Of a stretch of 43,023 nucleotides of DNA, positions 4,510 through 43,023 are shown in pieces. Position 1 is the first letter of the stretch. Each line of letters begins with the position of its first letter. The position numbers and the translations under genes were made by a program. The stretch comes from a virus: UHGV virus genome UHGV-0853564; one strand, 5' to 3'. The notes under the pieces were generated by a model. That model was given only the letters and a program-made list of their open reading frames with translations, was not told where the DNA came from and searched no databases.

Positions 4510-4515
4510 GAAAAA

Positions 4516-4531
4516 GGCCCCAAACGGGGCC
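4516..4531. terminator. bidirectional rho-independent terminator (GGCCCC-AAAC-GGGGCC)
   Basis: Perfect 6-bp GC stem with T-runs on both strands; sits between convergent genes 4279..4509 (+) and 4538..5710 (-); near-identical hairpin at 36816..36831. Confidence 0.65.
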
Positions 4532-4537
4532 TTAGTT

Positions 4538-11965: not shown

Positions 11966-11966
11966 A

Positions 11967-26814: not shown

Positions 26815-26829
26815 ACAGGAGAAAGAAAA

Positions 26830-27339: not shown

Positions 27340-27346
27340 CTATCTG

Positions 27347-27362: not shown

Positions 27363-27382
27363 TTTAACTGAGGGTCGGAATT

Positions 27383-27772
27383 ATGAAATACGAAGAAATG
27401 AGCGATTTTGAAATTAATTGTGCGGTGGCAGCCGCATTAGATTTAAATGAACATTTGTTCTTCCCGTCTGGCGTCGAATACCTTGATAGTGATACCGATG
27501 ATTCAGACATGGGGCCCATATGGCAAACAAGAATGCCGTTTGTTAAAGGTTTTAGACCGTATAATGGTAATTTATTTAACCCGTGCAACAACATAGATAT
27601 TGCGTGGCAAATTATTACTCAAAATCATATATCGATTGAATGCGTTACAGTTAACCGGCACACGTTTACGTACCGCGCATATCACTCTGCATCTTTCACC
27701 AAAAGTACGCACGAAAACCCCCTACGCGCCGCGATGATTGTCTTCCTTAAAATGCAGGAGGCAAAGAAATGA
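27383..27772 (+). CDS. hypothetical protein in AT-rich segment
   Basis: 129 aa; markedly AT-rich compared with neighbours. Confidence 0.5.
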   Translation: MKYEEMSDFEINCAVAAALDLNEHLFFPSGVEYLDSDTDDSDMGPIWQTRMPFVKGFRPYNGNLFNPCNNIDIAWQIITQNHISIECVTVNRHTFTYRAYHSASFTKSTHENPLRAAMIVFLKMQEAKK

Positions 27773-28041
27773 TTTACCAACTCTACCGCGCCGTAGACAG
27801 GCGAGATAACACAGAGGCGCTATGGCTGTTGCGTGCACCGTCAGGTGCGCACCAGATGGAAGAGATGGCGTATTTAGGTAAAGTACCGCGGCCTAAAGAT
27901 ATAGGCCGTCACGTGTCGCAGATTAAGCGCACGACTTTTGCCAAACCTGACTTTTATGTCTTCGAGTCGATGTATGGATGGGCCTTACATTGCGACCATA
28001 AGACACGGCATTTAATCGACCAGTGGGAGAACAGGGTATGA
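27769..28041 (+). CDS. hypothetical protein
   Basis: ORF track; ATGA overlaps both sides. Confidence 0.45.
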   Translation: MIYQLYRAVDRRDNTEALWLLRAPSGAHQMEEMAYLGKVPRPKDIGRHVSQIKRTTFAKPDFYVFESMYGWALHCDHKTRHLIDQWENRV

Positions 28042-28184
28042 TTTACTGGGCGATATTTACTTACACTAACGCCACGGCTACAGAGCACAGCCGATACTTG
28101 GACGTAGAGGATGCATACGCAGCATACGATAATCTTGATTTTGATACTTTTGACGATGCTTGGGTGGAGAGGGTAGAAGAATGA
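28038..28184 (+). CDS. small acidic hypothetical protein (48 aa)
   Basis: ATG 28038 overlapping upstream stop; below track cutoff. Confidence 0.3.
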   Translation: MIYWAIFTYTNATATEHSRYLDVEDAYAAYDNLDFDTFDDAWVERVEE

Positions 28185-28339
28185 CGAACCGTAAAGCGCG
28201 TTTTCTATTTGTTAAACGTAACCAGCCTTTTCGAGTAAGCAACTCGACTTGGCTGATCATCTTCAACCGTAGCGGCGACACGTGCGCCTATAAACGCAAA
28301 ACACGTAAAGTTAAATGGGGCGGGAGTTTAAGAGCATGA
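28181..28339 (+). CDS. small basic protein (52 aa), paralog of 26665..26814
   Basis: MTNRKARFLFV...RVSNS; stop overlaps start of nuclease gene. Confidence 0.4.
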   Translation: MTNRKARFLFVKRNQPFRVSNSTWLIIFNRSGDTCAYKRKTRKVKWGGSLRA

Positions 28340-29784: not shown

Positions 29785-30017
29785 TTCGTAGGATGTTCAG
29801 GGTGCTTGGCGGACTTGTAGCGTTTTTAAGCTACCACTTTATGATGTTGCCGGTTTATTCTCTGCTTTTTCCATTAATAGCCTATCTTGCGATTAAGCAT
29901 AAAACCGTAGAACTGGACGAGTTAATGGAGGTTAAGGAGATGAAGTTTGTTCAGAATTTGGAGTGGCCTTTCGAATACGTATTGATAGTTGAGAAAATAA
30001 CTGGCTGGAAGGGTTGA
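29781..30017 (+). CDS. small membrane protein
   Basis: GAGGAGGA RBS; hydrophobic segments LGGLVAFLSYHFMMLPVYSLLFPLIAYLAI. Confidence 0.45.
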   Translation: MIRRMFRVLGGLVAFLSYHFMMLPVYSLLFPLIAYLAIKHKTVELDELMEVKEMKFVQNLEWPFEYVLIVEKITGWKG

Positions 30018-30042
30018 CACCTGAATAGTTAGCTATTATATT
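30014..30042 (+). promoter_or_regulatory. sigma70-like promoter TTGACA-N17-TATATT with GAATAGT dyad in spacer
   Basis: Same architecture as 26604..26632; upstream of SSB-like gene; palindrome AATACGTATT at ~29965. Confidence 0.55.
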
Positions 30043-30096
30043 TCTAATCACTGGCCGGGCAGATTCCCGGAGTAAACTGAAAAGCGAGAAATTAAG

Positions 30097-30726
30097 ATGG
30101 GTATTAAACTGAATCTGCGTAAAGTAAACACTGCTTGGGTTAACGTATTCGAACGTGCTGCCGACTCTGAGGACAAGAAAACCGGTAAACTTATTAAGGG
30201 CAAATATCAGGTTACGGTTCTTATGCAGCCCGACCACCCTCAAATCGACGCGCTTTATGATACCGCGCTGGAAGTTGTAACAGAGGCAATCGGGGCGGCT
30301 GCTGCCGAGAAATGGATGAAGGCCAACTACGGCGTAGACCACCACGCGGACAAATGCTGCGTCCGTGACCTGGCAATGCGCGATAATCCGATTGAGGATT
30401 TTGAAGAGGGTCTGTATTTCCGCGCTACTAACAACCGCCAACCGGTGATTATGACATCTGCTAAAGGTGAAAAACAAACCGAGCCTGATTTCAACATCGA
30501 CGGGCAGGAAGTAGAAGGCGAGCAGGTATATAGCGGGTGTGTGGCTAACGTATCTGTAGAGTTGTGGTGGCACAAAGAATGGAAAAACCTGTGCGCTACC
30601 ATCCTCGGCATCAAGTATGCGGGCGAAGGTAAACGCTTCGGAGGCTCCAGTGTAGTAGCGAGCACCGACGACCTGGAAGACGACGAAGAAGATGAAGCAC
30701 CGCGCCGCGAACGTCGCCGCCGCTAA
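30097..30726 (+). CDS. ssDNA-binding protein-like (phage SSB family) with acidic C-terminal tail
   Basis: N-terminal LRKVNTAWVNVFE pattern typical of a phage SSB family; C-terminal TDDLEDDEEDE acidic tail. Confidence 0.55.
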   Translation: MGIKLNLRKVNTAWVNVFERAADSEDKKTGKLIKGKYQVTVLMQPDHPQIDALYDTALEVVTEAIGAAAAEKWMKANYGVDHHADKCCVRDLAMRDNPIEDFEEGLYFRATNNRQPVIMTSAKGEKQTEPDFNIDGQEVEGEQVYSGCVANVSVELWWHKEWKNLCATILGIKYAGEGKRFGGSSVVASTDDLEDDEEDEAPRRERRRR

Positions 30727-30745
30727 TATCTGAATCAATTTAACT

Positions 30746-30767
30746 AAGGCCCTTCATTGGGCCTTTT
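30746..30767 (+). terminator. rho-independent terminator AGGCCC-N6-GGGCCT + T5
   Basis: Hairpin followed by TTTTT; downstream of SSB-like gene. Confidence 0.6.
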
Positions 30768-30785
30768 TACTAAGGGTCGAAAATA

Positions 30786-33059
30786 ATGAGTTACCTGTTC
30801 TTAGACTTTGAAACATTCTCCGAAGCCGATTTAAAGAAAGTCGGTTCCTACGCTTACGCCGAACATCCAACTACAGAAGTGCTTATCTGTACCTATGCTT
30901 TTGACGACGAGCCTGTGCAGGTATGGGATTGCACGGACGGCAGCGACATGCCAGGGGATTTGCACCGCGCACTGCGCCGCCTGGTTAAGCCAAACAGCCG
31001 CATCAAGATGGTGTGGCACAACGGTGGACTTTTCGATAGGCTCATCATGAAGCACTGCTGGGGTTTCGATATCCCCGTAAGCAACACCATTGATACGATG
31101 ATTTGGGCGTTTCGTCACGCGCTGCCGGGTTCACTTGATGCACTGTGTGAAGTGCTGGGCGTATCCGCGGACAACGCGAAAGATAAACGCGGTAAGGCGC
31201 TGATTCAGCGTTTCTCTAAACCGACGCCGAAGAACTACAAAATTCGCCGCTACACTGCTGAAACTCACCCTGACGAATGGGCGCTGTTCATCAAATACGC
31301 CGTGAGCGACATCACTGCGATGCGTGAAGTCTTCCATAAACTGCCGCGTTGGGGTAACTCCGAGTTCGAAGACCGTGTACTGGAACTGGACCAGTTAATC
31401 AACGACAGAGGCTTCTTTGTTGACACGGCTCTTGCTGAGGCGGCGGTAGCGGCAGTTGAACGCCACAAGCAAGAGCTAAAAAACGAGGCCCGCGCGAAAT
31501 TCGGGGGGAAACTAACGGGCAAAGATTTCCTGCCAATACTTCGGGAGCTGGCACCGGCCTACAATATTTATAATGCGCAGAAAGCAACGCTCGAAGGTTT
31601 GCTAGAGGACGATGACCTGCCTGATGATGCGCGTACAATCATTGAGATGCGCCTCGGCGCGGCCTCCACGGCGTCGACAAAATACAAACCGCTCCTGCTA
31701 GGACGGTCCAAAGACGGACGCCGCCGCGGTTGCATCCAGTACGGTGGGGCAAAGCGCACTTTACGATTTGCGGGTAAAGGGTTCCAGCCGCAGAACCTGT
31801 CGCGCGGGTACTACCATGACGACCCAACTAATGAGGAAAAGAAACTTGTACGTCAGCCGTGGGAGTCCGACGAAGACTGGAACCGCAGGCTTAACCCGCT
31901 ATCATTTGGTATCAATTTGCTTTTAAAGGGTCGGGCGCATCGCCGTTTTGATATATCTAAACTAACGGCCTCAACTGTCCGCAGTTGCATCATCCCGGAA
32001 AAAGGCAATAAGTTGCTCGTTGCCGACTACTCAAACGTGGAAGGGCGTGGGTTAGCCTGGACGGCGGGGGAGGCGTCTGCCCTTGAGACGTTCCGCGCGG
32101 GGATTGATATTTATTGCGCCACTGCGGGCAAGATGTTTGGTATGGACCCTATAGAACTGAAAGCCACCCGTAAAGACCTACGACAGGTCGGGAAATGTTG
32201 CGAGCTCGGCCTCGGCTACGAGGGGGGTGTAGGGGCCTTCATGACTATGGCTAAAACTTACGGGCTGGACCTCTTTAAAATGACGGAGACAATGCGGGGG
32301 ACATTCCCTGACCATATATGGGCCGCCACTGCCCGAGGCTATGAATGGGCGCGGATCCAGGAGGCTAAGCGGCCTCCAAAACCTGGTAAAAAGGATGAAC
32401 GGGCCTCTTACGTGCTGCCTAAGGAAGTGTGGCGTACCTGTGATGCTATCAAGCGCATGTGGCGGGAGGCCCATCCGGAAACAGTGAAATTCTGGAACGA
32501 CCTTAAGGATTCAGTGATTGCCGCAATCAGAAATCCTGGGCGAGAGTTTTGGGCGGGGGCCAGGGTCCGCCTCAACGGCGACAGAGCTATTCGCATCTGG
32601 CGTACTAAAGAGAAAGACAGACAAGGTAACTTTGTGCCAGGTTGGTGGTTGTGCGTGGAATTGCCGTCCGGGCGCATCATGTCCTACCCTGGTATAGGTT
32701 TAAGCGTCACTAAAGAGACCGACGAGGACGGGCGCGTAACAACTAACGTTCGCATTAAATACCAGGGCGAAAATCAGACTACCCGCCAGTGGACAACTTT
32801 GTACACCCACGGCGGGAAATTGTGTGAAAACATTATCCAGGCGTTGTGTCGTGATTTACTGGTTAACGGACTCCTGACGGTCGAGGCAGCAGGCTACCCA
32901 ATTGTACTTCACGTACATGACGAATGTGTCGCCGAAACGCCAGACACACCGGAGTACACGGTTAAAGAGATGGGTGATCTGCTATGCTCATTACCTGAAT
33001 GGGCTAAAGGGTTCCCGTTAACATGGGCTGGGGAAGAGGTGTACCGTTATGCCAAGTAA
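30786..33059 (+). CDS. DNA polymerase, family A (Pol I-like) with 3'-5' exonuclease domain
   Basis: Exo motif LDFETFS; polymerase motifs ADYSNVEGR (motif A-like), RQVGKCCELGLGYEGG (motif B-like), LHVHDECV (motif C-like). Confidence 0.8.
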   Translation: MSYLFLDFETFSEADLKKVGSYAYAEHPTTEVLICTYAFDDEPVQVWDCTDGSDMPGDLHRALRRLVKPNSRIKMVWHNGGLFDRLIMKHCWGFDIPVSNTIDTMIWAFRHALPGSLDALCEVLGVSADNAKDKRGKALIQRFSKPTPKNYKIRRYTAETHPDEWALFIKYAVSDITAMREVFHKLPRWGNSEFEDRVLELDQLINDRGFFVDTALAEAAVAAVERHKQELKNEARAKFGGKLTGKDFLPILRELAPAYNIYNAQKATLEGLLEDDDLPDDARTIIEMRLGAASTASTKYKPLLLGRSKDGRRRGCIQYGGAKRTLRFAGKGFQPQNLSRGYYHDDPTNEEKKLVRQPWESDEDWNRRLNPLSFGINLLLKGRAHRRFDISKLTASTVRSCIIPEKGNKLLVADYSNVEGRGLAWTAGEASALETFRAGIDIYCATAGKMFGMDPIELKATRKDLRQVGKCCELGLGYEGGVGAFMTMAKTYGLDLFKMTETMRGTFPDHIWAATARGYEWARIQEAKRPPKPGKKDERASYVLPKEVWRTCDAIKRMWREAHPETVKFWNDLKDSVIAAIRNPGREFWAGARVRLNGDRAIRIWRTKEKDRQGNFVPGWWLCVELPSGRIMSYPGIGLSVTKETDEDGRVTTNVRIKYQGENQTTRQWTTLYTHGGKLCENIIQALCRDLLVNGLLTVEAAGYPIVLHVHDECVAETPDTPEYTVKEMGDLLCSLPEWAKGFPLTWAGEEVYRYAK

Positions 33060-33180
33060 ACTGATTATCGCGGTACTGGCGGGATTCGCCGCCGGGGTCT
33101 ACTGTCACGAGGGTCAATACGGCATGATGGTTGCCATATTGGGCATGTTCATCGCAATTTATCTGTGGGTGCTGGAATGA
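33049..33180 (+). CDS. small hydrophobic protein (43 aa)
   Basis: ATG overlapping polymerase 3' end; single TM-like segment; low confidence. Confidence 0.25.
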   Translation: MPSKLIIAVLAGFAAGVYCHEGQYGMMVAILGMFIAIYLWVLE

Positions 33181-33261
33181 AAATTTACTGGTTCTACGAA
33201 GAAGACTGCCGAATCTGTCCGCGCTGCGGTATTGAGCATACAAAACGGGAGGGGTGCATAG

Positions 33262-33579
33262 ATGAGTACGCCTGAGGGGCGCGTGCAGAAATATGCAAAA
33301 GAGCGATTCGAGGCCCTCGGTGGCCTCGTTCGAAAACTTTCCTACGAGGGTCGCTCTGGCGCTCCTGACCTGCTGGTAATTCTCCCCGGCGGAATCATCT
33401 GGTTCGTCGAGGTTAAGAAAGACGAAAACACGAAGCCAGACCCGCACCAGTTACGGGAGCATGGGCGGATGCGTAAACGTGGTGCAAATGTTTTTGTAGT
33501 TGGTTCGATAAAACAGGTTGACACCTTAATAGCGGACTATTATAGTAAGCGCATACCCCAACAATATAAGGAATTATAA
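33262..33579 (+). CDS. VRR-NUC domain nuclease
   Basis: GAPDLLVILPGGIIWFVEVKK matches VRR-NUC PD-(D/E)XK signature. Confidence 0.6.
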   Translation: MSTPEGRVQKYAKERFEALGGLVRKLSYEGRSGAPDLLVILPGGIIWFVEVKKDENTKPDPHQLREHGRMRKRGANVFVVGSIKQVDTLIADYYSKRIPQQYKEL

Positions 33580-33580
33580 A

Positions 33581-33835
33581 ATGGCTATCGAACTTCAACT
33601 GTCAGTAAACACCATGATTATGGGTTCAATCGATTCATCTGTACGCATCGGTAAATACACAGGGGCGTCAGTTAATTACTCATGGTCTATGAAGGTTTCG
33701 GAAGTGAACCGTATCCTGGGTTTCGGGTCAGTTGGCTGCAAGGTGCTGGCAGAAGACGTCGCTAAAGGGCTGTCTGTAGACTTCACAACGGCTGGAGAAC
33801 TCATTAAGCAAGTTCAAGCCGAATTATCTAACTAA
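33581..33835 (+). CDS. hypothetical protein
   Basis: ORF track. Confidence 0.4.
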   Translation: MAIELQLSVNTMIMGSIDSSVRIGKYTGASVNYSWSMKVSEVNRILGFGSVGCKVLAEDVAKGLSVDFTTAGELIKQVQAELSN

Positions 33836-33838
33836 TAC

Positions 33839-33854
33839 AGGCCCTTCGGGGCCT
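33839..33854 (+). terminator. stem-loop AGGCCC-UUCG-GGGCCT
   Basis: UUCG tetraloop hairpin followed by leader ttaactataaggaattgagaaATG. Confidence 0.35.
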
Positions 33855-33874
33855 TAACTATAAGGAATTGAGAA

Positions 33875-34066
33875 ATGAAACACGAATATGACCGCAAACC
33901 AGCACGCGACATCGTACCTGGCGACATGATTTTCAACGTTAAGACCCGTCGTCCTGTTGCCGTTGATACGGTGTTCGTCGAGTCAAATGGCAAACTGGTT
34001 ATCGAAGATGTAACCGGTAACGTTACGGCGTTCGGGCGTAAAGAGCTGGTGCTGGTGGTGAAATGA
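33875..34066 (+). CDS. hypothetical protein
   Basis: ORF track. Confidence 0.4.
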   Translation: MKHEYDRKPARDIVPGDMIFNVKTRRPVAVDTVFVESNGKLVIEDVTGNVTAFGRKELVLVVK

Positions 34067-34746
34067 TTGTCTGGTCATTGTTTGACGGTTCGGGCCTTAT
34101 GGCCCAACCGTGGGCGGAAGCGGGCCATACTTGCTACTGTTTCAACTACGACGGCGCTGACCACGGCGACTACGCACGATTGGGCGCAAGGGTTGAACAT
34201 GAAAACATCCACTATATAAACGCGTGGATTGACAATAAATTCGACTTCGAGGTTTCGCCGGATATTATTTTTGCGTTCCCTCCGTGCACAGATTTAGCTG
34301 TTAGCGGCGCGGCGCATTTCGAAATGAAGCGGAAGAAGAATACAACTTTTCAGGTAGAGGCCGTGATTACATGCAAAGTGGCGGCACGTCTGGCTAAAAA
34401 GTATAACGCACCCTATATGATTGAGAACCCGGTTAGTGTTCTTTCATCTTTATGGCGTAAGCCTGATTATGTGTTCAACCCACACGAATACGGCGGCTAT
34501 TTACCGGAAGACGATACGCATCCAATGTTCCCGGATGTTATTCCAGCGCAGGATGCCTATGTTAAAAAGACGTGCCTATGGGCAGGCAATGGGTTTGTTA
34601 TGCCCGACGTTGCTGTAGTTGCCGCTGATAGCGGGGATAACCCTGGTTGGGCTAAACTCGGCGGAAAGAGCGCCAGAACAAAGACAATCCGCAGCCTCAC
34701 CCCACGAGGTTTCGCAAAAGCAGTTTACGAGGCCAATCATGTCTAA
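34063..34746 (+). CDS. short DNA cytosine-C5 methyltransferase-like protein (no obvious target-recognition domain)
   Basis: Motif I-like LFDGSGL, PC catalytic motif FPPCTD, motif VI-like IENPV; only 227 aa. Confidence 0.55.
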   Translation: MIVWSLFDGSGLMAQPWAEAGHTCYCFNYDGADHGDYARLGARVEHENIHYINAWIDNKFDFEVSPDIIFAFPPCTDLAVSGAAHFEMKRKKNTTFQVEAVITCKVAARLAKKYNAPYMIENPVSVLSSLWRKPDYVFNPHEYGGYLPEDDTHPMFPDVIPAQDAYVKKTCLWAGNGFVMPDVAVVAADSGDNPGWAKLGGKSARTKTIRSLTPRGFAKAVYEANHV

Positions 34747-36163
34747 GTTTCAAAGGCGCGAGTACCAGAAGCTCATGACTTCGTTCATGTTGCGACACCA
34801 TCGATGTAATATTTGGGCGAGCATGGGCGCCGGGAAGACTGGTAGCGTCCTGTGGACTTTAAACCGCCTGTTCCGCAACGGGCAACTTACGGACGACGAC
34901 CGTGTGTTAATCCTCGCCCCGTTGCGAGTTTCGTCTGGCACATGGCCTGCGGAACAAGAGAAATGGAACTTTCCTTGTCTGAGTGTAGTCGATGCAACTG
35001 GTTCAGAGAAGCGCCGCATCGCGGCGCTGGAGTCTGACGCTAATGTGGTGTGCACGAACTACGAAGTTATCGAGTGGCTGATTGACTACTACGGCAAAGA
35101 CGACTGGCCTTTTACCGTTATCGTTGCCGATGAAAGCACGAAACTGAAATCATTCCGTAGCCGTTCTGGTGGTAGTAAGAGGGCGAAGGCGCTCAGTAAA
35201 GTAGCATTCGGAAAGGTTAAGCGCTTCATCAACCTGACTGGTACACCGTCGCCGAACGGCCTCAAAGATTTGTGGGGCCAGAACTGGTTTATCGACGCAG
35301 GCGAGCGACTAGGCTCATCATACACAGCATTCACTGACCGCTGGTTTAACTCGGTACAGGAAGGCAAATCTGCGATGGCGCGAAGGTATCGTGTACGCCC
35401 TGGCGCGGATAATGAGATTCACCAGAGGATGAAAGACATTAGTCTCACGATTGACGCCGCTGAGTGGTTCGGTTGTGAAGCGCCGATTATTGTTCCGGTT
35501 GAAATCGACTTGCCGAAGAAAGCGCGTCAGGCGTACATCGATATGGAGGAGAAGTTATTCGCGGAACTTGAGAGCGGGGAAGTGGAAGCGGCTAACGCGG
35601 CGGCGAAGACGTCGAAGTGTTTGCAGATTGCATCCGGCGCCGTATATGTGTCCGGGCCAGACGGCGAAGCAACGAAAGACTGGGAGAAAGTGCACGATAC
35701 GAAACTGGATGCGCTTGAGTCAATTGTTGAGGAGTTACAGGGCGCGCCGTTACTGGTGGCTTATCAGTTTAAGCACGAACTGGAGCGCATCCTTAAACGA
35801 TTCCCGCAGGCACAGGCGTTTGCCAAAGGTGCGAAGGGTAATAAGCAGATGGAAGCGTGGAACCGCGGGGAAATCGAGATTTTGTGCGTCCACCCTGCGT
35901 CAGCCGGGCATGGTTTGAATTTACAGGACGGCGGACATCATCTGGCATTCATATCGCAAGGCTGGAACCTTGAGCACTATTTACAGGTCGTTGAGCGCAT
36001 CGGCCCTGTTCGCCAGAAACAGGCAGGCCACGAGCGCCCGGTGTTCCTTTATCACATAGTCGCTAAAGACACTCTTGACGAGGTTGTTGCCGCGCGTACC
36101 GACGAGAAGAAATCGGTACAGGAAGAGTTGCTTAATTACATGAAGAGACGAGGTAAGAAATGA
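34739..36163 (+). CDS. SNF2-family helicase
   Basis: Walker A SMGAGKTG, motif II VIVADEST, motif III NLTGTPSPNGL; ATG 34739 overlapping upstream stop (track start 34619). Confidence 0.7.
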   Translation: MSKFQRREYQKLMTSFMLRHHRCNIWASMGAGKTGSVLWTLNRLFRNGQLTDDDRVLILAPLRVSSGTWPAEQEKWNFPCLSVVDATGSEKRRIAALESDANVVCTNYEVIEWLIDYYGKDDWPFTVIVADESTKLKSFRSRSGGSKRAKALSKVAFGKVKRFINLTGTPSPNGLKDLWGQNWFIDAGERLGSSYTAFTDRWFNSVQEGKSAMARRYRVRPGADNEIHQRMKDISLTIDAAEWFGCEAPIIVPVEIDLPKKARQAYIDMEEKLFAELESGEVEAANAAAKTSKCLQIASGAVYVSGPDGEATKDWEKVHDTKLDALESIVEELQGAPLLVAYQFKHELERILKRFPQAQAFAKGAKGNKQMEAWNRGEIEILCVHPASAGHGLNLQDGGHHLAFISQGWNLEHYLQVVERIGPVRQKQAGHERPVFLYHIVAKDTLDEVVAARTDEKKSVQEELLNYMKRRGKK

Positions 36164-36675
36164 CGGATTTCGAAGAGTTTCTACTTAAAGCTCATCTGCT
36201 GGCGCGTGGGTTTGACGCCGACCGTCTCCAGGTAGTCTTGGCCCCCGGCGTTGCTACATTCTACTTGTGGGGCTTTGACGGTAGGCTACGCGGATACCAG
36301 CATTACAAGCCACATGCTGAAAAGAACTGTAAAAACCCTAAAGATGCGCGGTACTTTACCCGAACAACAAGGCCGTGTTTATGGGGGCTTGAGTATTTGC
36401 CAAGTAGCGGGGTGGTATTTGTTACCGAAAGCATATTTAAAGCTGCTGCTTTGATGAATTGCGGGTTCAATGCCGTAAGCGCACTTGGGTCAAATATACC
36501 AACCGACCTACGGCAGCAAATGTCACTTTTGCCGTATGACTGGGTGTGCGCGGGCGACAATGATAAAGCTGGCTTAAAGTTCAGCAAAACATTCTCCAGA
36601 GGATTTGTGTCAAACGACCTTGATGAGCTTTGTGAAGAAGAAATAACGTATCTTGCGAGGAAATTTACCAGATGA
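36160..36675 (+). CDS. Toprim-domain protein (primase-like)
   Basis: VVFVTES ... VCAGDNDKAG resembles Toprim E and DxD motifs. Confidence 0.5.
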   Translation: MTDFEEFLLKAHLLARGFDADRLQVVLAPGVATFYLWGFDGRLRGYQHYKPHAEKNCKNPKDARYFTRTTRPCLWGLEYLPSSGVVFVTESIFKAAALMNCGFNAVSALGSNIPTDLRQQMSLLPYDWVCAGDNDKAGLKFSKTFSRGFVSNDLDELCEEEITYLARKFTR

Positions 36676-36809
36676 ACATAATAGCCCCGATTCCGGCATT
36701 GCAAAAACGTATCAAGGAACTCGAAGAGGAGGTTCTACGACTACGGCAACAGAGAGATGCCGCTAATGCGCAACTGGCGTTTATACTGGAGAAGTTATTA
36801 GAAGAGTAG
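36672..36809 (+). CDS. small coiled-coil protein (45 aa)
   Basis: ATGA overlap with upstream gene; followed directly by terminator. Confidence 0.3.
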   Translation: MNIIAPIPALQKRIKELEEEVLRLRQQRDAANAQLAFILEKLLEE

Positions 36810-36815
36810 AGAAAA

Positions 36816-36831
36816 GGCCCCGAAAGGGGCC
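36816..36831. terminator. bidirectional terminator GGCCCC-GAAA-GGGGCC
   Basis: Near-identical to hairpin at 4516..4531; between convergent rightward module and tailspike gene. Confidence 0.65.
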
Positions 36832-36837
36832 TTAGTT

Positions 36838-38595
36838 TTATGCAAGCCTTGTAACACTAAAAGAAAATGCGCTTGCTATGCCTGCACCGCTGACAGTGTT
36901 CCTAAGTGTAACCCTGAAGCTGGTTGTACTGCTATATATAACATCACAACTCACGGAATCAGGGGCTGATATTGGCGTTATCTGCACCACATAACCATTA
37001 GTAGATGTGGCTAATTGCTGAGAAAATGTCACATCATAAACACCTGTAGCTACCATGTTTACTGAGGATACACCCGGTGCTACATCAATACTGCCATTAG
37101 CGTTAATTCTCCCTGAACGAGGAATGCCGCCAGAGGAAATTGACGCTGCTTTACTTGTTTCTTCCATGAACGTGCAACCTATGTCTATAAACTCAACGTT
37201 ACCTACCGCGTGCCAATATGGTCGCGATACGTCAGGCACGTAACCGGCGACACTCTGGAATGTCGTCCCGTTGAGAATGACTGTTAATTTCCCTCCACCA
37301 GAAGAAGTAGCTAAAATGTTGTAGGTAGTGTACGCCGTACCACTAACCCGATGGAAGTTTCCGCCATTGATAACCAACGTTACTGGACGTGAGCCTGCGT
37401 TGTCGATTAATAAGTCTGCCTTCCCGGAGTTAGCCTCAAAATATGGGTTATTTAGCACTACGGCGCCAGAGCCGTTTAGTCCGTTGACCGCTATATTCAT
37501 TCCTCCGGTGGAATCGCTTCCAGCAATACCATTACCCTCACATGTAAGGCTATTGATAGTTGTTCCGGCGCCCCAGCGGTCCCCTAAAATGCCCCATCGT
37601 GTATTGCCGCTGGCGGTTAATCTGTTGACAGTGATTGCATTAAGTTCTGACCATTCACTGGAGTTAAGTATGCGCCAGCCAATACTGTTACCCTCTAAGT
37701 ACACATTATCCAATTCAGAAGTTAATACAGCGTCTGTTCGTAAACCTTCGCCGTTGGTATGTCCGTAAGATACTATGTTCTCTAACTTGGTGTATGCTTT
37801 ATCGGTTACGAGAAGACCGTAAGACGTTGCTGAGCCTTTTAGCGTAATATTCCCGAGATAATCATAAGCATGTATTCGTTGGGTTGCTCCGACAGTATCC
37901 CCTAGCATCTTCAAGTTAAAATCAGCAACCTGACAGTTAAAGATAGTCTCCGCCATATTCTCGCCCTCGTAATGAGCGCGAACACCAGGAGAGCCTATAA
38001 ATGCGGCGTCGTAGTTTCCATAATCGAGTACCAGCGCCGACGTTACATCATAAACACCTTGTTTAATTTTTAATGCGCCGCCGAGATGCCAGTTAGTTAA
38101 CGGATTCTGGAACATGTCACCGTCAATACGGCTTATAGCATCCCTCACCGCTTCCGTAGTGCTGTACGCAACAAGGTCCGCACCCAAACCATCGTCCGGG
38201 TTTGCCAGGTCATTCCGTAAATTCGGGTCAGTCTGCGGCTCCCAGTCAGCATTACCCACCGGGTTAAACGATGCGGGGACAACAACCGGCAACGTACCCG
38301 CATACGAGTACCATGTTTTGCTAACCGGGTCATAAACTACTTTATCCCGGTCGTCGACAGCTAGTGTTCCGCCAGTGGAAAAGTCCCATGACACGGGAGA
38401 AAACCCAGCATCACGCAACACAGCGGGTAGCGTCTTCTGAGTCTGCCCTGTAACCTGGTTTGTCGCGTAATCAATATCGGCCCCACCAGCTACGCCACCG
38501 GATTTACCAGTGATAACTTCAGCTTCGAAAATCTGGTGTTTTTTTGCGGTCTGTAAGTCCGCCAGGCTTAAAACGTCACCGCATCCGCTTGACAT
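36838..38595 (-). CDS. tailspike / tail fiber with beta-helix-like repeats (candidate depolymerase)
   Basis: 585 aa, Gly/Asn/Thr/Ser-rich repeats typical of right-handed beta-helix tailspikes; last gene of tail operon. Confidence 0.55.
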   Translation of the reverse strand: MSSGCGDVLSLADLQTAKKHQIFEAEVITGKSGGVAGGADIDYATNQVTGQTQKTLPAVLRDAGFSPVSWDFSTGGTLAVDDRDKVVYDPVSKTWYSYAGTLPVVVPASFNPVGNADWEPQTDPNLRNDLANPDDGLGADLVAYSTTEAVRDAISRIDGDMFQNPLTNWHLGGALKIKQGVYDVTSALVLDYGNYDAAFIGSPGVRAHYEGENMAETIFNCQVADFNLKMLGDTVGATQRIHAYDYLGNITLKGSATSYGLLVTDKAYTKLENIVSYGHTNGEGLRTDAVLTSELDNVYLEGNSIGWRILNSSEWSELNAITVNRLTASGNTRWGILGDRWGAGTTINSLTCEGNGIAGSDSTGGMNIAVNGLNGSGAVVLNNPYFEANSGKADLLIDNAGSRPVTLVINGGNFHRVSGTAYTTYNILATSSGGGKLTVILNGTTFQSVAGYVPDVSRPYWHAVGNVEFIDIGCTFMEETSKAASISSGGIPRSGRINANGSIDVAPGVSSVNMVATGVYDVTFSQQLATSTNGYVVQITPISAPDSVSCDVIYSSTTSFRVTLRNTVSGAGIASAFSFSVTRLA

Positions 38596-38607
38596 ATAGA
38601 GTCCTCT

Positions 38608-41175
38608 TTAACTAAAACCATTGCTGAATCCGTCGGAGAAACCGCTGCCGTATGGCGCGGCGCCGTCGTATTTGTAGAAATCCGCTTCGTAGTTAATCCC
38701 GGTAATCTTGACCGTGCGGTCGTCACCAGGGTCAACTGTAGAAACAAGAATCATCTGAGCATTATGCCTTGCTTCGTTGCCGAATGAAAACTCAGTTTTT
38801 AGTGCACTATTACCTGTGTAAATTGCTTCCTGCGGTGCCGATAGCATAACTACTTCGCGGTCGTGACTTCCCGGCGCTACTGCAACACTCTGAACTCCGC
38901 CATCTCGCTTCTTAAGAATCAATGAGTGGTCGTCTCCGGGGGTAAACGTAACAGGTTGTGATAGCGTCAGTGCAAGCCCATTAACGGCAACAACATAGCC
39001 ATCTTGCGGGGCCATACGCGAACCTTTTACCACACTTACCGCACGCCCAGGCATTGCAAAAATACCTTCTTCTGCCGCTGTGAATGATACAGTCACCTTC
39101 TTCAACAGGTTTTTCTGGTAGCGGCGGTATGCGGCCCAGTATGCCTGCTTATAGTTACGGATGCCTTTAGAGTCATACGTTTCGGTATTAACCCCACCTT
39201 CTGCTGGTATGCTAATAGTCTCTTTGACGTTAGTATCTGGGTCGATGTAGGAGAATTTGAGACTATCGTATACCTGAGCGTCGTTGAATGTGCGTGTCCA
39301 CTTCTCCGAAGCTGTGGTTTTGCTACGATGCGTGAACACCATCTCGGGCCCCATGCGAGGGCGTTCGAAATCCAGAAGAATATCGGCACCTCTACGGTAT
39401 GGGGTGCAGAAAATTGCCTCCGCTATCGTAGCTACTATGTCCTGCATAGTAGTTTTGTAATCATCGAATGTGTAGCAGAATTGCCCTGCCTCGGCGTTCC
39501 CGAAATAACTTTCAATCTCAGCCTGTGTGGCCAGCAACTTATCCATGTTAGCCGTGGTGAGATTGAGGTTTCCTACAACCGGGTCGCGAGCAAGCCGTAT
39601 CAGGGACTGCACTGCCTGTGTATTAGGTGTCATAACTGTATCAAAAACACCGTTGCCCAGGTACTTGTACACCATCTCGGTAGCGACCATGCGCAATTGA
39701 GGCTGTTTAACCTCCGCGGCTCGTGGTGTCTGCTTACGAGCGGAATGTACTGTTGTACGGTTGCCGTAGTGCGGCGTACGGTCTATCGATTGCCCGTATA
39801 GGTTTGCGTATGTAACCTCGTCAACCACTGTACCCTCGAAATCAAGGTCCAGATTAGTAACGCGGCGCATACGCACGCGTACTTTAGACGGCGCGGGGAG
39901 ATCGGCGTATATTGTGACGCCAGTGTAATCCTGGCTACGGCCTGTAACTGTTCCTTGTTTTGTGTACACCGGGCCGTACGGTTGCCCCTCGGCATCCAGT
40001 AACTGGTATTGCATTTCGACAATGACAGATGCCCGTGTTTTATTCTCGCCGTTGTCCTTGTACATGCCGTTTGCCGCAGCAACGTTAGTTACCACTCGTT
40101 CTACGTTTATGCGGTTGATATAAGCCCAGTCTGTAAGGCTGGCATTATAGGTATCCTGCGGCCCAATCAGATGTTTACCCTGAACGTTATCTATGGGGTA
40201 CGCTGTTGTCCCTATTAAATTCCATTGTGTCTGGTTGTTAGAAATATCAACTACCAGGGTAGTGTCACTAACAGAAATAACCGGGTAATAACCGGAAAGA
40301 TTTACCTCACCGCCAAGGCCGCCAGGAGTAGTATCCGCAAACACTCCATCAAAGAATGCTATTTGACCAACAGAAAGAACATCATAGAATCCTGCGTCCG
40401 GTCCGGTAACTGTGCCAGTTGAACCAGAGCGCTGTACGGTGAATAACCCAACATTAACCTGTACGTCATTCTGGGCTTTAAGTACTACGCCGTCTACTTC
40501 GTTTGACGATACAGTGATGTAAAGCCCTTGGTCGATAGGGTCGCCGATGCGTAGTTGCGGCGTGCTAGTGTTATTTGGCGACGTGAACGGTGCGTATATT
40601 TCTACCGAAGTGCCCGTGATTTCTTGTACCCGAGTGTCGCCGTCGGTAACATCTTCTGGCTTGATGTCCAAATATCCTCTACCAGCATCGTAGTAGCCGT
40701 ATTCAACGACCGTACCGGATGCGTTAAACACCTTATAGGTGGTCATGAGGTCATTAGGAATAGTCTGCACCCGGCCGCAGATGTCATAAGTTCGCTCGTA
40801 AGGGCGAGCCTTGTTATTTCGGTCTGTCAGACTGTTGTTCGGTGAGTCCGCTTGCTGGTTAGCGAGATTGTTAGACGCGCCCCTCGTTGACGGTGTGAGT
40901 AATTTAGCTAGCGGTTTAAGGATGATGCTAAATACTTTCATCACGCCTTTGACTACCCCACCACCAGCACCCTCCAGGACGTGAAAAACGGCATCCTGTT
41001 TTAAGGCGTCAAAATCTTCTGTTACGTCGTTATCCTCCCCTATCTCTTCGAGGAAAACGCGAAACGGCACACCATCAGGGATATGGTTTACGACGAAATT
41101 CAGCGGCGAGTCATTATGCCGTTTTTGTGTGAATGTCCCGTCTTCGTTGCGGGTGTAGTGGATGACTATCGCCAA
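38608..41175 (-). CDS. central tail fiber / host specificity protein (gpJ-like)
   Basis: 855-aa ORF following K-like gene, lambda-type tail-tip order. Confidence 0.6.
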   Translation of the reverse strand: MAIVIHYTRNEDGTFTQKRHNDSPLNFVVNHIPDGVPFRVFLEEIGEDNDVTEDFDALKQDAVFHVLEGAGGGVVKGVMKVFSIILKPLAKLLTPSTRGASNNLANQQADSPNNSLTDRNNKARPYERTYDICGRVQTIPNDLMTTYKVFNASGTVVEYGYYDAGRGYLDIKPEDVTDGDTRVQEITGTSVEIYAPFTSPNNTSTPQLRIGDPIDQGLYITVSSNEVDGVVLKAQNDVQVNVGLFTVQRSGSTGTVTGPDAGFYDVLSVGQIAFFDGVFADTTPGGLGGEVNLSGYYPVISVSDTTLVVDISNNQTQWNLIGTTAYPIDNVQGKHLIGPQDTYNASLTDWAYINRINVERVVTNVAAANGMYKDNGENKTRASVIVEMQYQLLDAEGQPYGPVYTKQGTVTGRSQDYTGVTIYADLPAPSKVRVRMRRVTNLDLDFEGTVVDEVTYANLYGQSIDRTPHYGNRTTVHSARKQTPRAAEVKQPQLRMVATEMVYKYLGNGVFDTVMTPNTQAVQSLIRLARDPVVGNLNLTTANMDKLLATQAEIESYFGNAEAGQFCYTFDDYKTTMQDIVATIAEAIFCTPYRRGADILLDFERPRMGPEMVFTHRSKTTASEKWTRTFNDAQVYDSLKFSYIDPDTNVKETISIPAEGGVNTETYDSKGIRNYKQAYWAAYRRYQKNLLKKVTVSFTAAEEGIFAMPGRAVSVVKGSRMAPQDGYVVAVNGLALTLSQPVTFTPGDDHSLILKKRDGGVQSVAVAPGSHDREVVMLSAPQEAIYTGNSALKTEFSFGNEARHNAQMILVSTVDPGDDRTVKITGINYEADFYKYDGAAPYGSGFSDGFSNGFS

Positions 41176-41531
41176 AATTCAATCTCCTGATATGTGTCAC
41201 GTAAATCGTCCAGTCGGTCAAGGCGCACTTGTCTGGACGCTAACTCGCAGTGGCTTACCATACCGTCATAATACACGCCAGCGTGCCACACTACACGTCC
41301 TCTGTGATAAGTACCAAGCAACACCGCATCATAATTCTGCGGACTGGCGGCGCGTTCCAGACCTTTAGGGTTGGAGTGGCCCGCGTCAAACGCCGCGTCT
41401 ATCGCCGTCGGGGAGGTTACGTCGAAAGTCGGGGTAGATAGTCCAACATCACCGCGCACCCTGCGCACGTGATGCCAACAATTGTAACGACGGAAGTCAT
41501 AAGGGAGGCCAGTATAGGCAGTGATACTCAT
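41166..41531 (-). CDS. tail assembly protein, NlpC/P60-like (gpK-like)
   Basis: YNCWHHVRRV contains Cys-His pair typical of NlpC/P60 fold; internal ATG 41531 with ATGA overlap preferred over track start. Confidence 0.5.
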   Translation of the reverse strand: MSITAYTGLPYDFRRYNCWHHVRRVRGDVGLSTPTFDVTSPTAIDAAFDAGHSNPKGLERAASPQNYDAVLLGTYHRGRVVWHAGVYYDGMVSHCELASRQVRLDRLDDLRDTYQEIEFWR

Positions 41532-42058
41532 GACAAAAGTACCCCACGCAGCAGCGGAATTTCTTCTGGCGTCATCAGGATTCCTGTCTGCCGTTGGTTG
41601 AGCATAGGCGTTCCTGTCTCTGCGGTGAACACGCCTTTTTCTTGCGTCAACGTCTGCAACTCGTATACCACAGGGCCATCGCACGGGTACGACAGGTCAG
41701 TGCTTACATAACGGCGGAATATAAATTTTGGTAACTCTGTGTTGCTGTACGGGATGCGGTCCATCTCTTCATCGAGAATGTTAAGAACATCCGGCAGTGA
41801 GAATGAAGCTGTCTGGTCCATGTCATTATTGTTCGCGGCGTTCTTGGCGTCCATAGGGGTTGCTTCGAACGTAACGGTTTCGCCAGTCTCAAGCGTAGCG
41901 GTAAGGTCAGACGTCCCGCGCACGAGCAACCACCGCTTTGAGAGAAGCGGGTGCGTTATTTCAAGAGTAATGTAATCCAGTTCGCCGTCTGGGTTAGACG
42001 CCAGTTTACGACGATATGCGGCTTCTACTGATTCCTGGCTCATTGCATTGGGCCCCAA
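41528..42058 (-). CDS. minor tail protein (gpL-like)
   Basis: Position between M-like and K-like genes. Confidence 0.5.
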   Translation of the reverse strand: MGPNAMSQESVEAAYRRKLASNPDGELDYITLEITHPLLSKRWLLVRGTSDLTATLETGETVTFEATPMDAKNAANNNDMDQTASFSLPDVLNILDEEMDRIPYSNTELPKFIFRRYVSTDLSYPCDGPVVYELQTLTQEKGVFTAETGTPMLNQRQTGILMTPEEIPLLRGVLLS

Positions 42059-42534
42059 ATACGTGGAAACGTTGATTGCGCGGTTCCGTATGCTTTAAGG
42101 AATCCGCCTAAGCAATCCCCATAACAGCCGAACAAATCCGGTAGATTCTTAGTAAGACATGTATCTTCCTGAATCACTGTTCGCTCCGCCGTAGCGGTGA
42201 ACGTGATTACCCAGTTCTTGCCATCGTCGGTGCTGTCGCTAATCGTCGACGTGATGAGTATCTGGTGGTCCTCGATACCCATACCTGTATCATGCGGCAT
42301 GATAAACGAGGACGCCCCTCCATCGATGTTGTTCAGGAAGCTATAAAACGCCTGACGCCCGAGAGAAGACACGACAAGCGTTACACTAATCGGCACTGGC
42401 TCAAAGTACGTGTCTCGCCCCTGACGAGGTAATCCACCCTGAACCTCAGTGCGCCAGATATTACTCCCCCTGGTCTGGGAGTACCCCTTCGACACTATAG
42501 GTCGAAGGGACATAGGGAATCTTAAAGAAGACAT
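42040..42534 (-). CDS. minor tail protein (gpM-like)
   Basis: KGYSQTRG...VSVTLVV...FYSFLNNIDGGASSFIMP resembles lambda gpM pattern; first gene after tape measure stop. Confidence 0.5.
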   Translation of the reverse strand: MSSLRFPMSLRPIVSKGYSQTRGSNIWRTEVQGGLPRQGRDTYFEPVPISVTLVVSSLGRQAFYSFLNNIDGGASSFIMPHDTGMGIEDHQILITSTISDSTDDGKNWVITFTATAERTVIQEDTCLTKNLPDLFGCYGDCLGGFLKAYGTAQSTFPRIWGPMQ

Positions 42535-42537
42535 AGT

Positions 42538-43023
42538 TTAATACCCCGGCTGACCGCGAGTAGAGCGGCGAGCTTTAGAAATCGGTGAGTTGTTATCCTG
42601 TAACTGTGACGCTACTGTTTCACTGATTATAATACGTAACCGCCCCTCGTCGTCACGCTCGGTAACGGCAGAATCGACGCGTCCGGTGGTGTTGTTGACT
42701 ATGGTGACGTTATCACCGCCGGACTGGCCGCCGTTTTGTCCCATGATTTCTTTCATCTGCTGCGCGGTGCGCACACGCGATGCACCCGCAGGCATGATAA
42801 CTTCTGGCTTACCACGTTCCGCTATAGTTGACATCTGGCCTGCTGATAACTGCCCGCCCTGTTCACGCGCCGAGCGAATCTTGGCGATATTAGCCAGCCC
42901 CGCAGCTACTGCCGTTGCTGCGGCTACAGGAGCCAGGAATGGGCCGACAACAGGGATAGCAGCCGTTGACTTATACGCCTCAATAGCGGAGGTGTATGTT
43001 GCGATAGTGGCCTGGGCAATAGC
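42538..43023 (-). CDS. tail tape measure protein, C-terminal 161 codons (in frame with 1824..1)
   Basis: Frame open from window end to stop at 42538; hydrophobic segment AAIPVVGPFLAPVAAATAVAAGLANIA; track reports only the 98 aa from an internal Met. Confidence 0.7.
   Translation of the reverse strand, partial: AIAQATIATYTSAIEAYKSTAAIPVVGPFLAPVAAATAVAAGLANIAKIRSAREQGGQLSAGQMSTIAERGKPEVIMPAGASRVRTAQQMKEIMGQNGGQSGGDNVTIVNNTTGRVDSAVTERDDEGRLRIIISETVASQLQDNNSPISKARRSTRGQPGY

What the first reader, a model, noticed from the sequence alone, without database searches (positions are those of the whole stretch)
36838..38595. Tailspike with beta-helix-like repeats: candidate polysaccharide depolymerase
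The 585-aa terminal tail protein is rich in Gly/Asn/Thr/Ser with repeated short beta-strand-like segments, as in right-handed parallel beta-helix tailspikes that cleave O-antigen or capsule. Its 3' end shares the terminator and last codons (GCA TAA) with the major tail protein gene, hinting at cassette exchange of the receptor-binding module.
Basis: inference. Interest (0 to 1): 0.4.

Follow-up and report, generated by a model that had tools for sequence, protein, structure and literature searches.

The report
Mosaic beta-helix O-antigen tailspike of Kagunavirus
This gene encodes the tailspike of a Kagunavirus-like E. coli phage, in which the genus's own N-terminal anchor is fused to a beta-helix receptor-binding module also found in Shigella phages Sf11 and Sf101; it is a real but ordinary case of module swapping.

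Summary
The 585-aa ORF at 36838-38595 (-) is real and is the last gene of the tail operon. The window is a complete Kagunavirus-like siphophage genome of about 43 kb.

The protein is a mosaic:
- Residues 1 to about 127 are the genus-conserved Kagunavirus tailspike anchor.
- Residues about 166-585 are a receptor-binding module. It is 97% identical to one in an Sf11-like phage contig, 92% identical to P22-like prophage tailspikes of E. coli and S. flexneri, and 84% identical to Sf11 gp13.

An alignment-based AlphaFold2 model (pLDDT 82.6) gives a long beta-strand solenoid plus a C-terminal beta domain. All top Foldseek hits are right-handed beta-helix tailspikes or depolymerases. Sf11 needs O-antigen to infect, and Sf101 infects S. 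flexneri serotypes that share one O-antigen backbone. An O-antigen-cleaving tailspike is therefore the best reading. No enzyme activity has been measured for this module family, and no structure of the module has been solved.

The shared 3' terminator is also real (18 identical bases including GCATAA). However, it is a genus-wide repeated terminator that abuts the stop codon of many unrelated tailspike modules, and the shared GCA codon is coincidence. Cassette exchange is shown by comparative data, not by that repeat.

Verdict: ordinary; a new member of a known kind.

The parts
36838..38595 (-). Tailspike gene, 585 aa plus TAA stop at 36838-36840
   Evidence: ORF list. phrog_17420 'tail protein' E 6e-206 over aa 134-584, and phrog_29731 'tail spike protein' E 7e-51 over aa 1-114. 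Matches Sf11 gp13 (PDB 9OCC sequence) at E 4e-247.
38215..38595 (-). N-terminal virion anchor, aa 1 to about 127, Kagunavirus-specific
   Evidence: 84-95% aa identity to tailspikes of many Kagunaviruses whose C-terminal parts are unrelated. Nucleotide identity to vB_Eco_AMO_3701M (L003) ends at aa ~127. Weak Pfam Tail_spike_N hit at aa 72-112, below the cut-off. aa 1-54 have pLDDT below 50.
38101..38214 (-). Helical neck and junction, aa about 128-165
   Evidence: Model helices at 123-131, 150-161 and 165-171. This stretch is 83-90% identical to the Kagunavirus-type relative L005 but only 33-63% identical to L004. It is collinear with the 'hinge' at residue 162 of Sf11 gp13.
37156..38100 (-). 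Predicted right-handed parallel beta-helix, aa about 166-480, with conserved E353, Y385-F-E387-x-N389 and D394
   Evidence: AF2 strands 174-472, mostly pLDDT above 90. Foldseek hits. 96.2% nt identity to L004 from aa 163 to the stop. Conservation counts among 58 distant members: E353 52, E387 56, D394 56, R416 58.
36841..37155 (-). C-terminal beta-strand domain, aa about 481-585
   Evidence: AF2 strands 493-583 with pLDDT about 84-95. Conserved with Sf11 gp13, Sf101 and the prophage tailspikes. Only a non-significant Pfam DUF7361 hit.
38602..38607 (-). Shine-Dalgarno AGAGGA of the tailspike gene
   Evidence: Read directly from the sequence.
36814..36833 (.). Bidirectional stem-loop terminator (AAGGCCCC-N4-GGGGCCTT) between the tailspike gene and the convergent 45-aa ORF
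   Evidence: Terminator scan. Hairpin of 8 bp; the 51-nt stretch around it folds at -15.4 kcal/mol on the minus strand and -19.3 on the plus strand. The convergent ORF 36672-36809 (+) ends 5 nt before the stem. Conserved behind diverse tailspikes in IMG/VR contigs.
4514..4533 (.). Second copy of the same terminator, behind the tail tube gene (4538-5710, -)
   Evidence: Repeat family D1, pattern search, 3' end comparison. It also lies between convergent genes; the 76-aa ORF 4279-4509 is on the plus strand.
38608..41175 (-). J-like central tail fibre / baseplate hub gene directly upstream of the tailspike gene
   Evidence: phrog_469 E 2e-249 and phrog_31 'central tail fiber J'. This is the locus arrangement described for Kagunavirus tailspikes (PMC11990801).

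Best explanation
The gene encodes the single tailspike, the receptor-binding protein, of a Kagunavirus-like siphophage.

The N-terminal ~127 residues fix it to the tail tip. A short helical neck follows. Residues ~166-480 form a right-handed parallel beta-helix, and residues ~481-585 form a small beta domain.

By homology with Sf11 gp13, the protein is expected to be a homotrimer that binds the O-antigen chains of the host's lipopolysaccharide. It most likely cleaves them as an endoglycosidase, so that the tail tip can reach the outer membrane. The likeliest substrate is an O-antigen of the Shigella flexneri type or a related E. coli type. Candidate catalytic carboxylates are E353, E387 and D394.

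The gene is a recombinant. The anchor belongs to the Kagunavirus backbone. The beta-helix and C-terminal part is an allele shared with Sf11-like siphophages, P22-like prophages and T7-like phages. The left junction lies in the neck, at about aa 128-166. The right junction lies at the stop codon, which abuts a conserved backbone terminator.

Shown here: the ORF, its position in the operon, the mosaic structure and its junctions, the fold prediction, and the homologies. Inferred: trimer formation, O-antigen binding, hydrolysis, the substrate and the catalytic residues.
For: ORF and locus. The tailspike gene lies directly after the J-like fibre gene, as described for Kagunavirus (PMC11990801).

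Backbone: about 90% nt identity to Kagunaviruses over about 75-80% of the genome.

Fold:
- AF2 with a 57-sequence alignment gives pLDDT 82.6.
- Top Foldseek PDB hits are CBA120 TSP3 and TSP4, Sf6 TSP, LKA1 gp49 and the Dettilon tailspike, with E 1e-7 to 1e-5 and probability 1.0.
- The BFVD hits are almost all tailspikes or pectate-lyase-like proteins, best E 1e-29.
- Of 58 distant members, 8 hit PF12708 and 8 hit PF13229.

Functional homologues:
- Sf11 gp13 is 84% identical over aa 160-585. It is a virion tailspike, with 18 copies as 6 trimers, and Sf11 fails to grow on waaC, waaG and waaL mutants (PMC12724387).
- Sf101 carries the same module on a P22-type head-binding domain, next to an O-acetyltransferase gene. 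It infects S. flexneri serotypes 1a, 1b, 3b and Y.
- Alleles 92% identical occur in E. coli and S. flexneri prophages.

Conserved acidic residues: E353 in 52 of 58, E387 in 56 of 58 and D394 in 56 of 58 members that are 25-63% identical to the query. In a weak HMMER alignment, E353 falls in the same column as Sf6 E366.

Mosaic structure. Diversity of anchors carrying this module.
Against: - No enzyme assay exists for any member of this module family, as far as I found. The Sf11 paper infers hydrolysis from shape and O-antigen dependence.
- In PDB 9OCC only residues 4-59 of gp13 were modelled, so the beta-helix is prediction only.
- The module has no Pfam or NCBIfam match.
- A profile of the module alone finds no other solved structure.
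- Homology to the Sf6 endorhamnosidase is weak: hhalign gives 72% probability and covers only aa 121-313, which excludes the catalytic region.
- Foldseek TM-scores are low, 0.24-0.42 against PDB, because a monomer with flexible domains was compared.
- The host of this phage is unknown. At 84-92% identity the sugar specificity could differ from that of Sf11 and Sf101.
Confidence: 0.78

Rival explanations
1. It is a binding-only tailspike. The beta-helix recognises O-antigen or another glycan as an adhesin but does not cleave it.
For: No activity has been measured in this family. There is no match to any curated glycosidase family. Correspondence with the Sf6 catalytic pair is incomplete, since D399 has no aligned partner.
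Against: Three carboxylates and a Y-F-E-x-N motif are conserved in 52-56 of 58 members down to 25% identity. That fits an active site better than a variable binding groove. The closest structural classes are enzymes. As general knowledge, phages that depend on O-antigen through a beta-helix spike usually cleave or deacetylate it.
Confidence: 0.1
2. It is a capsule or exopolysaccharide depolymerase, a hydrolase or lyase acting on a K-antigen rather than on O-antigen.
For: Other Kagunaviruses carry capsule-specific spikes, for example the K1 endosialidase of K1G and K1H. The fold is shared with capsule depolymerases and lyases. Database names for close relatives include 'pectate lyase superfamily protein'.
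Against: The characterised carriers of this particular module point to O-antigen. Sf11 is blocked by a waaL deletion, and the host range of Sf101 follows S. flexneri O-serotypes. As general knowledge, the S. flexneri O-antigen backbone contains no uronic acid, so a lyase mechanism is unlikely on that substrate.
Confidence: 0.08
3. The similarity of the two 3' ends shows recombination between the tail tube gene and the tailspike gene within this genome, and that event moved the receptor-binding cassette.
For: 18 identical bases including the last codon and the stop, and 84% identity over 43 nt. None of 100 shuffles gave a match.
Against: The same terminator follows the tail tube gene in 26 IMG/VR stretches and the tailspike locus in 24, with 16 different C-termini and 14 different last codons (GCA once). 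It also follows other genes in 22 stretches. The two coding sequences share nothing upstream of the last codon. The repeat is therefore a reused terminator element of this phage group. At most it serves as the right-hand homology arm for exchanges between Kagunaviruses.
Confidence: 0.03

Closest known systems
Shigella phage Sf11 gp13 tailspike (PDB 9OCC; J Virol 2025, PMC12724387)
   Same: Same length (585 aa) and collinear domain order. 84% aa identity over aa 160-585 and 72.5% over aa 53-584. Both are encoded directly after the large tail-tip protein of a siphophage. The neck junction coincides with the Sf11 'hinge' at residue 162.
   Different: The first ~160 residues are only 20-40% identical. 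Sf11 attaches gp13 through an adaptor helix of a 457-aa distal tail protein. Here the 164-aa minor tail gene in the corresponding position after the tape measure gene is much shorter, so attachment probably differs; this is inference. The phage genus also differs: Cedarrivervirus versus Kagunavirus-like.
Tail spike of Shigella podophage Sf101 and related P22-like prophages of E. coli and S. flexneri
   Same: Same receptor-binding module: 73% identity to Sf101 over aa 123-584, and up to 92% identity to the prophage alleles over aa 160-585.
   Different: Those proteins carry the P22 head-binding domain PF09008 at the N-terminus and sit in temperate podophages next to O-antigen-modifying genes. 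This one carries the Kagunavirus anchor in a siphophage genome where I saw no integrase among the genes I annotated.
Kagunavirus tailspikes in general (K1G and K1H endosialidases; O16-, O78- and O145-specific spikes)
   Same: Same N-terminal anchor (84-95% identity), same locus, same downstream terminator. The published pattern is a genus-conserved anchor with a horizontally exchanged module, including exchange with Lederbergvirus (PMC10408124 and PMC11990801).
   Different: The module is of the Sf101/Sf11 type. In the cultured-phage collection searched, only Sf11 and Sf101 carry it. Kagunavirus-anchored versions were found only in metagenome assemblies, at 71-85% full-length identity.
Sf6 tailspike endorhamnosidase (PDB 2VBK)
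   Same: Same overall class: a beta-helix tailspike of a phage acting on S. flexneri O-antigen. Foldseek E 1e-6. Weak sequence relation in the neck and the first rungs.
   Different: No detectable sequence homology over the catalytic rungs. Only one of the two Sf6 catalytic residues has a possible counterpart.

Membership tests
Right-handed parallel beta-helix phage tailspikes / polysaccharide depolymerases | Central right-handed parallel beta-helix fold | tested here: met
   AF2 model with pLDDT 82.6 and about 30 short strands between aa 174 and 472. All top Foldseek hits are such proteins, with probability 1.0. Distant family members hit PF12708 and PF13229. This is a prediction, not an experiment.
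Right-handed parallel beta-helix phage tailspikes / polysaccharide depolymerases | Modular build: N-terminal virion anchor plus C-terminal receptor-binding domain | tested here: met
   The anchor is shared with Kagunaviruses. The module is shared with Sf11-like, P22-like and T7-like phages.
Right-handed parallel beta-helix phage tailspikes / polysaccharide depolymerases | Homotrimer | not testable with these tools
   Only a monomer could be modelled. The trimer state is known for the homologue Sf11 gp13 from cryo-EM.
Right-handed parallel beta-helix phage tailspikes / polysaccharide depolymerases | Cleavage of a surface polysaccharide | not testable with these tools
   Needs an enzyme assay. 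Conserved E353, E387 and D394 are compatible with catalysis.
Sf11 gp13 / Sf101 gp15-type receptor-binding module (phrog_17420) | Full-length sequence homology of the module | tested here: met
   phrog_17420 E 6e-206 over aa 134-584. 9OCC sequence E 4e-247. 84% identity to Sf11 gp13 over aa 160-585 and 73% to Sf101 over aa 123-584.
Sf11 gp13 / Sf101 gp15-type receptor-binding module (phrog_17420) | Dependence of infection on O-antigen | not testable with these tools
   Shown for Sf11 with waaC, waaG and waaL mutants, and implied for Sf101 by its serotype-restricted host range. Not known for this phage.
Kagunavirus tailspike | Genus-specific N-terminal anchor | tested here: met
   84-95% aa identity over aa 1-130 to 1-153 with many Kagunavirus tailspikes. 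87.5% nt identity to L003 up to aa ~127.
Kagunavirus tailspike | Gene directly downstream of the J-like central fibre gene, at the end of the tail operon | tested here: met
   Described as such in PMC11990801.
Sf6-type tailspike endorhamnosidase | Sequence homology across the catalytic beta-helix | tested here: not met
   hhalign gives 72% probability, E 3e-5, over aa 121-313 only. The module-only profile finds no Sf6 chain at E up to 1. The earlier profile hit (E 5e-8) came from a profile that includes the P22-like neck.
Sf6-type tailspike endorhamnosidase | Catalytic pair E366 / D399 | tested here: inconclusive
   E353 shares a column with Sf6 E366 in a weak alignment. D399 lies in an insertion with no partner. 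The residue numbering of Sf6 is from my own knowledge of Muller et al. 2008; the residues were checked on the Sf6 sequence.
P22-type tailspike | Head-binding domain PF09008 at the N-terminus | tested here: not met
   No PF09008 hit in this protein. The prophage homologues with the same module do have it.

The most novel reading that the evidence does not exclude
The Sf101/Sf11-type module may be a distinct and still uncharacterised family of O-antigen-cleaving enzymes. It has at least 347 cluster representatives, no Pfam model, and no solved structure of the module. Its active site would be built on the conserved E353 / Y385-F-E387-x-N389 / D394 / R416 set rather than on the Sf6 pair. It might cut the S. 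flexneri-type O-antigen at a different linkage or by a different geometry than the Sf6 endorhamnosidase. This phage would then be a probably virulent carrier of that enzyme, of possible use against S. flexneri or against E. coli with related O-antigens.
Probability: 0.35. Interest if true: 0.35.

Novelty: new member of a known kind. Interest (0 to 1): 0.2.

Why it matters
The tailspike fixes the host range of this phage. Knowing that its module is the Sf101/Sf11 type predicts hosts with S. flexneri-like O-antigens. That is useful for phage typing, therapy cocktails and engineered spikes.

The locus is also a clean example of how one receptor-binding module moves between siphophages and podophages. 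The junctions are precisely placed: the neck at aa ~128-166, and the stop codon next to a conserved terminator. Those are the practical cut points for swapping modules in Kagunavirus chassis.

It does not change any concept. Modular tailspike exchange in this genus is already documented.

Tried and rejected
- Single-sequence AF2 gave an unusable model (pLDDT 45.5). It was replaced by the alignment-based run.
- Pfam gave only sub-threshold hits and NCBIfam none for the module.
- A profile of the module alone against PDB sequences found only 9OCC, in which the module is not modelled. The Sf6 hit obtained with the mixed profile A2 therefore rests largely on the neck region.
- I tried to infer the target O-serogroup from E. 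coli complete genomes. Only one distant hit appeared: strain G3/10, 76% nt identity. The literature gave Symbioflor 2 serotypes only for the mixture ('including O35,129'), not for that strain. I dropped this as inconclusive.
- The Kapi1 paper was checked; its spike shares only the head-binding domain and is not relevant.
- Rfam and tRNA scans of the whole window found nothing. The antisense ORFs inside the gene (for example 37328-37768 +) have no support and were ignored.
- I considered and rejected the idea that the GCA codon shared with the tail tube gene marks a recombination joint.
- I could not read model coordinates, so the spatial clustering of E353, E387 and D394 was not checked.

Full report
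**1. The observation**

- It has a good ribosome-binding site (AGAGGA, 6 nt upstream) and starts 12 nt after the stop of the preceding 855-aa gene.
- PHROG scans identify the neighbours. The minus-strand order is tail terminator, tail tube (4538-5710), tail assembly chaperone, tape measure, three small minor tail proteins, a J-like 855-aa tail-tip protein, and then this gene.
- The tape measure gene runs off position 1 and continues at position 43023. The window is therefore a whole genome of about 43 kb opened inside that gene. 'Terminal tail protein' is correct.
- G+N+T+S make up 36.4% of the protein, against 19-30% for most other proteins of the window.

The second observation is also real.
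- On the coding strand, both the tailspike gene and the tail tube gene end GCATAAAACTAAGGCCCC-N4-GGGGCCTT.
- The two 43-nt stretches are 84% identical.
- No match appeared in 100 shuffles.

**2. What the phage is**

The window is about 90% identical at the nucleotide level, over 70-80% of its length, to Escherichia phages of the genus Kagunavirus: EF2-1, hz69, XY1, XY2, SZH-1 and BASEL Bas72-76. It looks like a new species-level member of that group. No tRNA genes or Rfam families were found.

**3. The gene is a mosaic**

*The anchor.* A tblastn search of 50,697 phage records shows that residues 1 to about 130-165 are 84-95% identical to the tailspikes of many Kagunaviruses whose remaining sequence is unrelated. 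Only Sf11 and Sf101 match the rest.

*The junctions, by blastn against fetched loci:*
- Identity to a Kagunavirus with a different module (L003) stops at aa ~127 and resumes at the last codon and stop.
- Identity to an Sf11-like contig (L004) is 96.2% at the nucleotide level from aa 163 to the stop.
- A sliding-window protein comparison gives the same picture. The first 75 residues are 100% identical to the Kagunavirus-type relative L005, and the switch to L004-like sequence is at about aa 166.
- That position is collinear with the 'hinge' at residue 162 described for Sf11 gp13.

*The module, aa 160-585.* Identity to versions carried on different N-terminal anchors:

| N-terminal anchor | Example | Identity to the module |
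|---|---|---|
| Sf11-like N-terminus | P0010 | 97% |
| P22 head-binding domain (PF09008), E. coli and S. flexneri prophages | P0015-P0027 | 91-92% |
| Sf11-like N-terminus | Sf11 gp13 | 84% |
| T7 tail-fibre N-terminus | P0033 | 83% |
| No anchor (447 aa) | P0040 | 82% |
| Kagunavirus anchor (metagenomic) | P0001-P0012 | 63-82% |

- The best full-length match in 5.8 billion clusters is 85% identical. This particular chimera therefore seems to be unsampled.
- A full HMMER scan of 1.84 billion representatives finds 347 related clusters at E up to 1e-3, at varying positions within proteins of 110-905 aa. The module is a widespread, mobile unit.

**4. Fold**

- Single-sequence AF2 failed (pLDDT 45.5).
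- With a 57-sequence alignment the model reaches pLDDT 82.6, and 296 residues are above 90.
- The model shows helices at 123-171, about 30 short strands from 174 to 472, and a further beta domain at 493-583.
- Foldseek against the PDB returns only beta-helix tailspikes and related enzymes at the top: CBA120 TSP3 and TSP4, Sf6 TSP, LKA1 gp49, the Dettilon tailspike, phiAB6, Klebsiella depolymerases and AlgE epimerases, all with probability 1.0.
- BFVD gives the same classes, best E 1e-29.
- TM-scores are modest because a monomer with flexibly joined domains was compared.
- Among 58 distant family members, 8 match Pfam PF12708 and 8 match PF13229.
- The query's own module matches no Pfam or NCBIfam model.

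**5. Function**

*Evidence from characterised homologues.*
- Sf11 gp13 is present in virions as six trimers. Sf11 does not plate on waaC, waaG or waaL mutants, while the Omp and ECA mutants tested had no effect.
- Only residues 4-59 of gp13 were built in PDB 9OCC. The module's structure there is an AlphaFold fit, and hydrolysis is inferred rather than measured.
- Sf101 carries the module next to an O-acetyltransferase gene. It infects S. flexneri serotypes 1a, 1b, 3b and Y, which share one O-antigen backbone.
- Published work on Kagunaviruses shows that they depend on surface glycans through a single tailspike encoded after the J-like fibre. It also shows that Kagunavirus and Lederbergvirus exchange modules according to O-serogroup.

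*Reading.* The best reading is therefore an O-antigen-specific, probably hydrolytic tailspike. Its likeliest substrate is an S. flexneri-type or related E. coli O-antigen.

*Candidate catalytic residues.*
- In 58 members that are 25-63% identical to the query, E353 is kept in 52, E387 in 56, D394 in 56 and R416 in all 58.
- E353 and E387 are 34 residues apart. The catalytic pairs of Sf6 (E366/D399) and HK620 (D339/E372) are each 33 residues apart. The Sf6 residue numbers are from my own knowledge, the residues were checked on the Sf6 sequence, and the HK620 mutant names appear.
- In a weak HMMER alignment, E353 shares a column with Sf6 E366, but D399 has no partner.
- This is a hypothesis, not a result.

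**6. Relation to Sf6**

The Sf11 paper calls gp13 'Sf6-like'. At the sequence level this holds only for the neck and the first rungs.
- hhalign gives 72% probability over aa 121-313.
- A profile of the module alone finds no Sf6 chain.

I therefore file the protein with the Sf11/Sf101 module family and the general beta-helix tailspike class, not with the Sf6 endorhamnosidase family.

**7. The terminator argument**

A scan of IMG/VR for TAAAACTAAGGCCCC-N4-GGGGCCTTTT found 72 stretches, often two or three per Kagunavirus-like contig. They sort as follows:

| Location of the terminator | Stretches | Last codon of the preceding gene |
|---|---|---|
| Behind the tail tube gene | 26 | GCA in all 26 |
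| At the tailspike locus | 24 | 14 different codons (16 different C-terminal peptides); GCA once |
| Behind other genes | 22 | various; GCA never |

- In this window, both copies lie between convergent genes and fold as 8-bp GC-rich hairpins in either direction.
- The repeat is therefore a reused bidirectional terminator of the backbone.
- It marks the right-hand edge of the exchangeable cassette and may serve as a homology arm between Kagunaviruses.
- Its similarity to the tail tube terminator says nothing about exchange, and the shared GCA is chance. The closest alleles end ACA, GTA, GTG and CTA.

**8. Verdict**

The finding is ordinary: a new member of a known kind. The two points worth keeping are these:
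- This module family has no measured activity, no solved structure of the module and no curated model, despite being common.
- The junctions of the cassette are sharply defined.

Noticed in passing
window 1-1850 and 42538-43023 (minus strand): The tape measure gene runs off position 1 and continues from position 43023 down to its stop at 42538. The window is therefore a complete genome of about 43 kb opened inside this gene.
   Followed up: partly
window 2703-2734, 11659-11690, 33549-33580 (plus strand): A 32-nt repeat TTGCACACCCCAATATAATAGGGTACTATTCA; the first two copies are 97% identical and the third is 66% identical to the first. It reads as a sigma-70 promoter (TTGCAC, 17 nt, TACTAT). 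These are probably the phage's own promoters for plus-strand gene blocks embedded among minus-strand genes.
   Followed up: no
window 18294-18319, 18446-18471, 18637-18662: Three copies of CATTTCTTCTCTCC. This is the reverse complement of GGAGAGAAGAAATG, a ribosome-binding site plus ATG. They are near-identical translation start regions of consecutive small minus-strand genes.
   Followed up: no
window 4279-4509 (+) and 36672-36809 (+): The small plus-strand ORFs that converge on the two copies of the terminator (76 aa and 45 aa) both end in a similar motif, ..LEKLREYRSNIDE* and ..LEKLLEE*. The similarity is short and may be chance. The 45-aa ORF is conserved in the Kagunavirus-like contig L005.
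   Followed up: partly
window 11930-11972 and 13513-13532: Weaker copies of the same GC-rich terminator hairpin (AAAGCCCC-N4-GGGGCTTT type). The genome therefore reuses one terminator design at four or more sites.
   Followed up: no
window 3152-4282 (+): A DNA repair exonuclease gene (phrog_704, E 3e-167) and small plus-strand ORFs sit inside the minus-strand tail operon, between the tail tube and chaperone genes. Annotations of related phage records list the same genes (exonuclease, tail tube, tape measure).
   Followed up: partly
window 34063-34746 (+): A 227-aa ORF containing an FPPC motif. A DNA cytosine methyltransferase is among the features annotated under the Raoultella phage RP180 match to window 26246-43023. 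Its function was not checked here.
   Followed up: no
proteins P0040, P0057, P0060 (447 aa) and P0033, P0037 (673 and 774 aa): The same receptor-binding module also occurs without any anchor (447-aa proteins starting near the neck) and fused to a T7 tail-fibre N-terminal domain. This suggests adapter-mediated attachment in some phages.
   Followed up: partly
NZ_CP060075.1 3374299-3375458 (E. coli G3/10): Among 5,426 complete E. coli genomes, only the probiotic strain G3/10 carries a related module (76% nt identity), in a P22-like prophage tailspike. The closer 92% alleles occur only in draft assemblies.
   Followed up: partly
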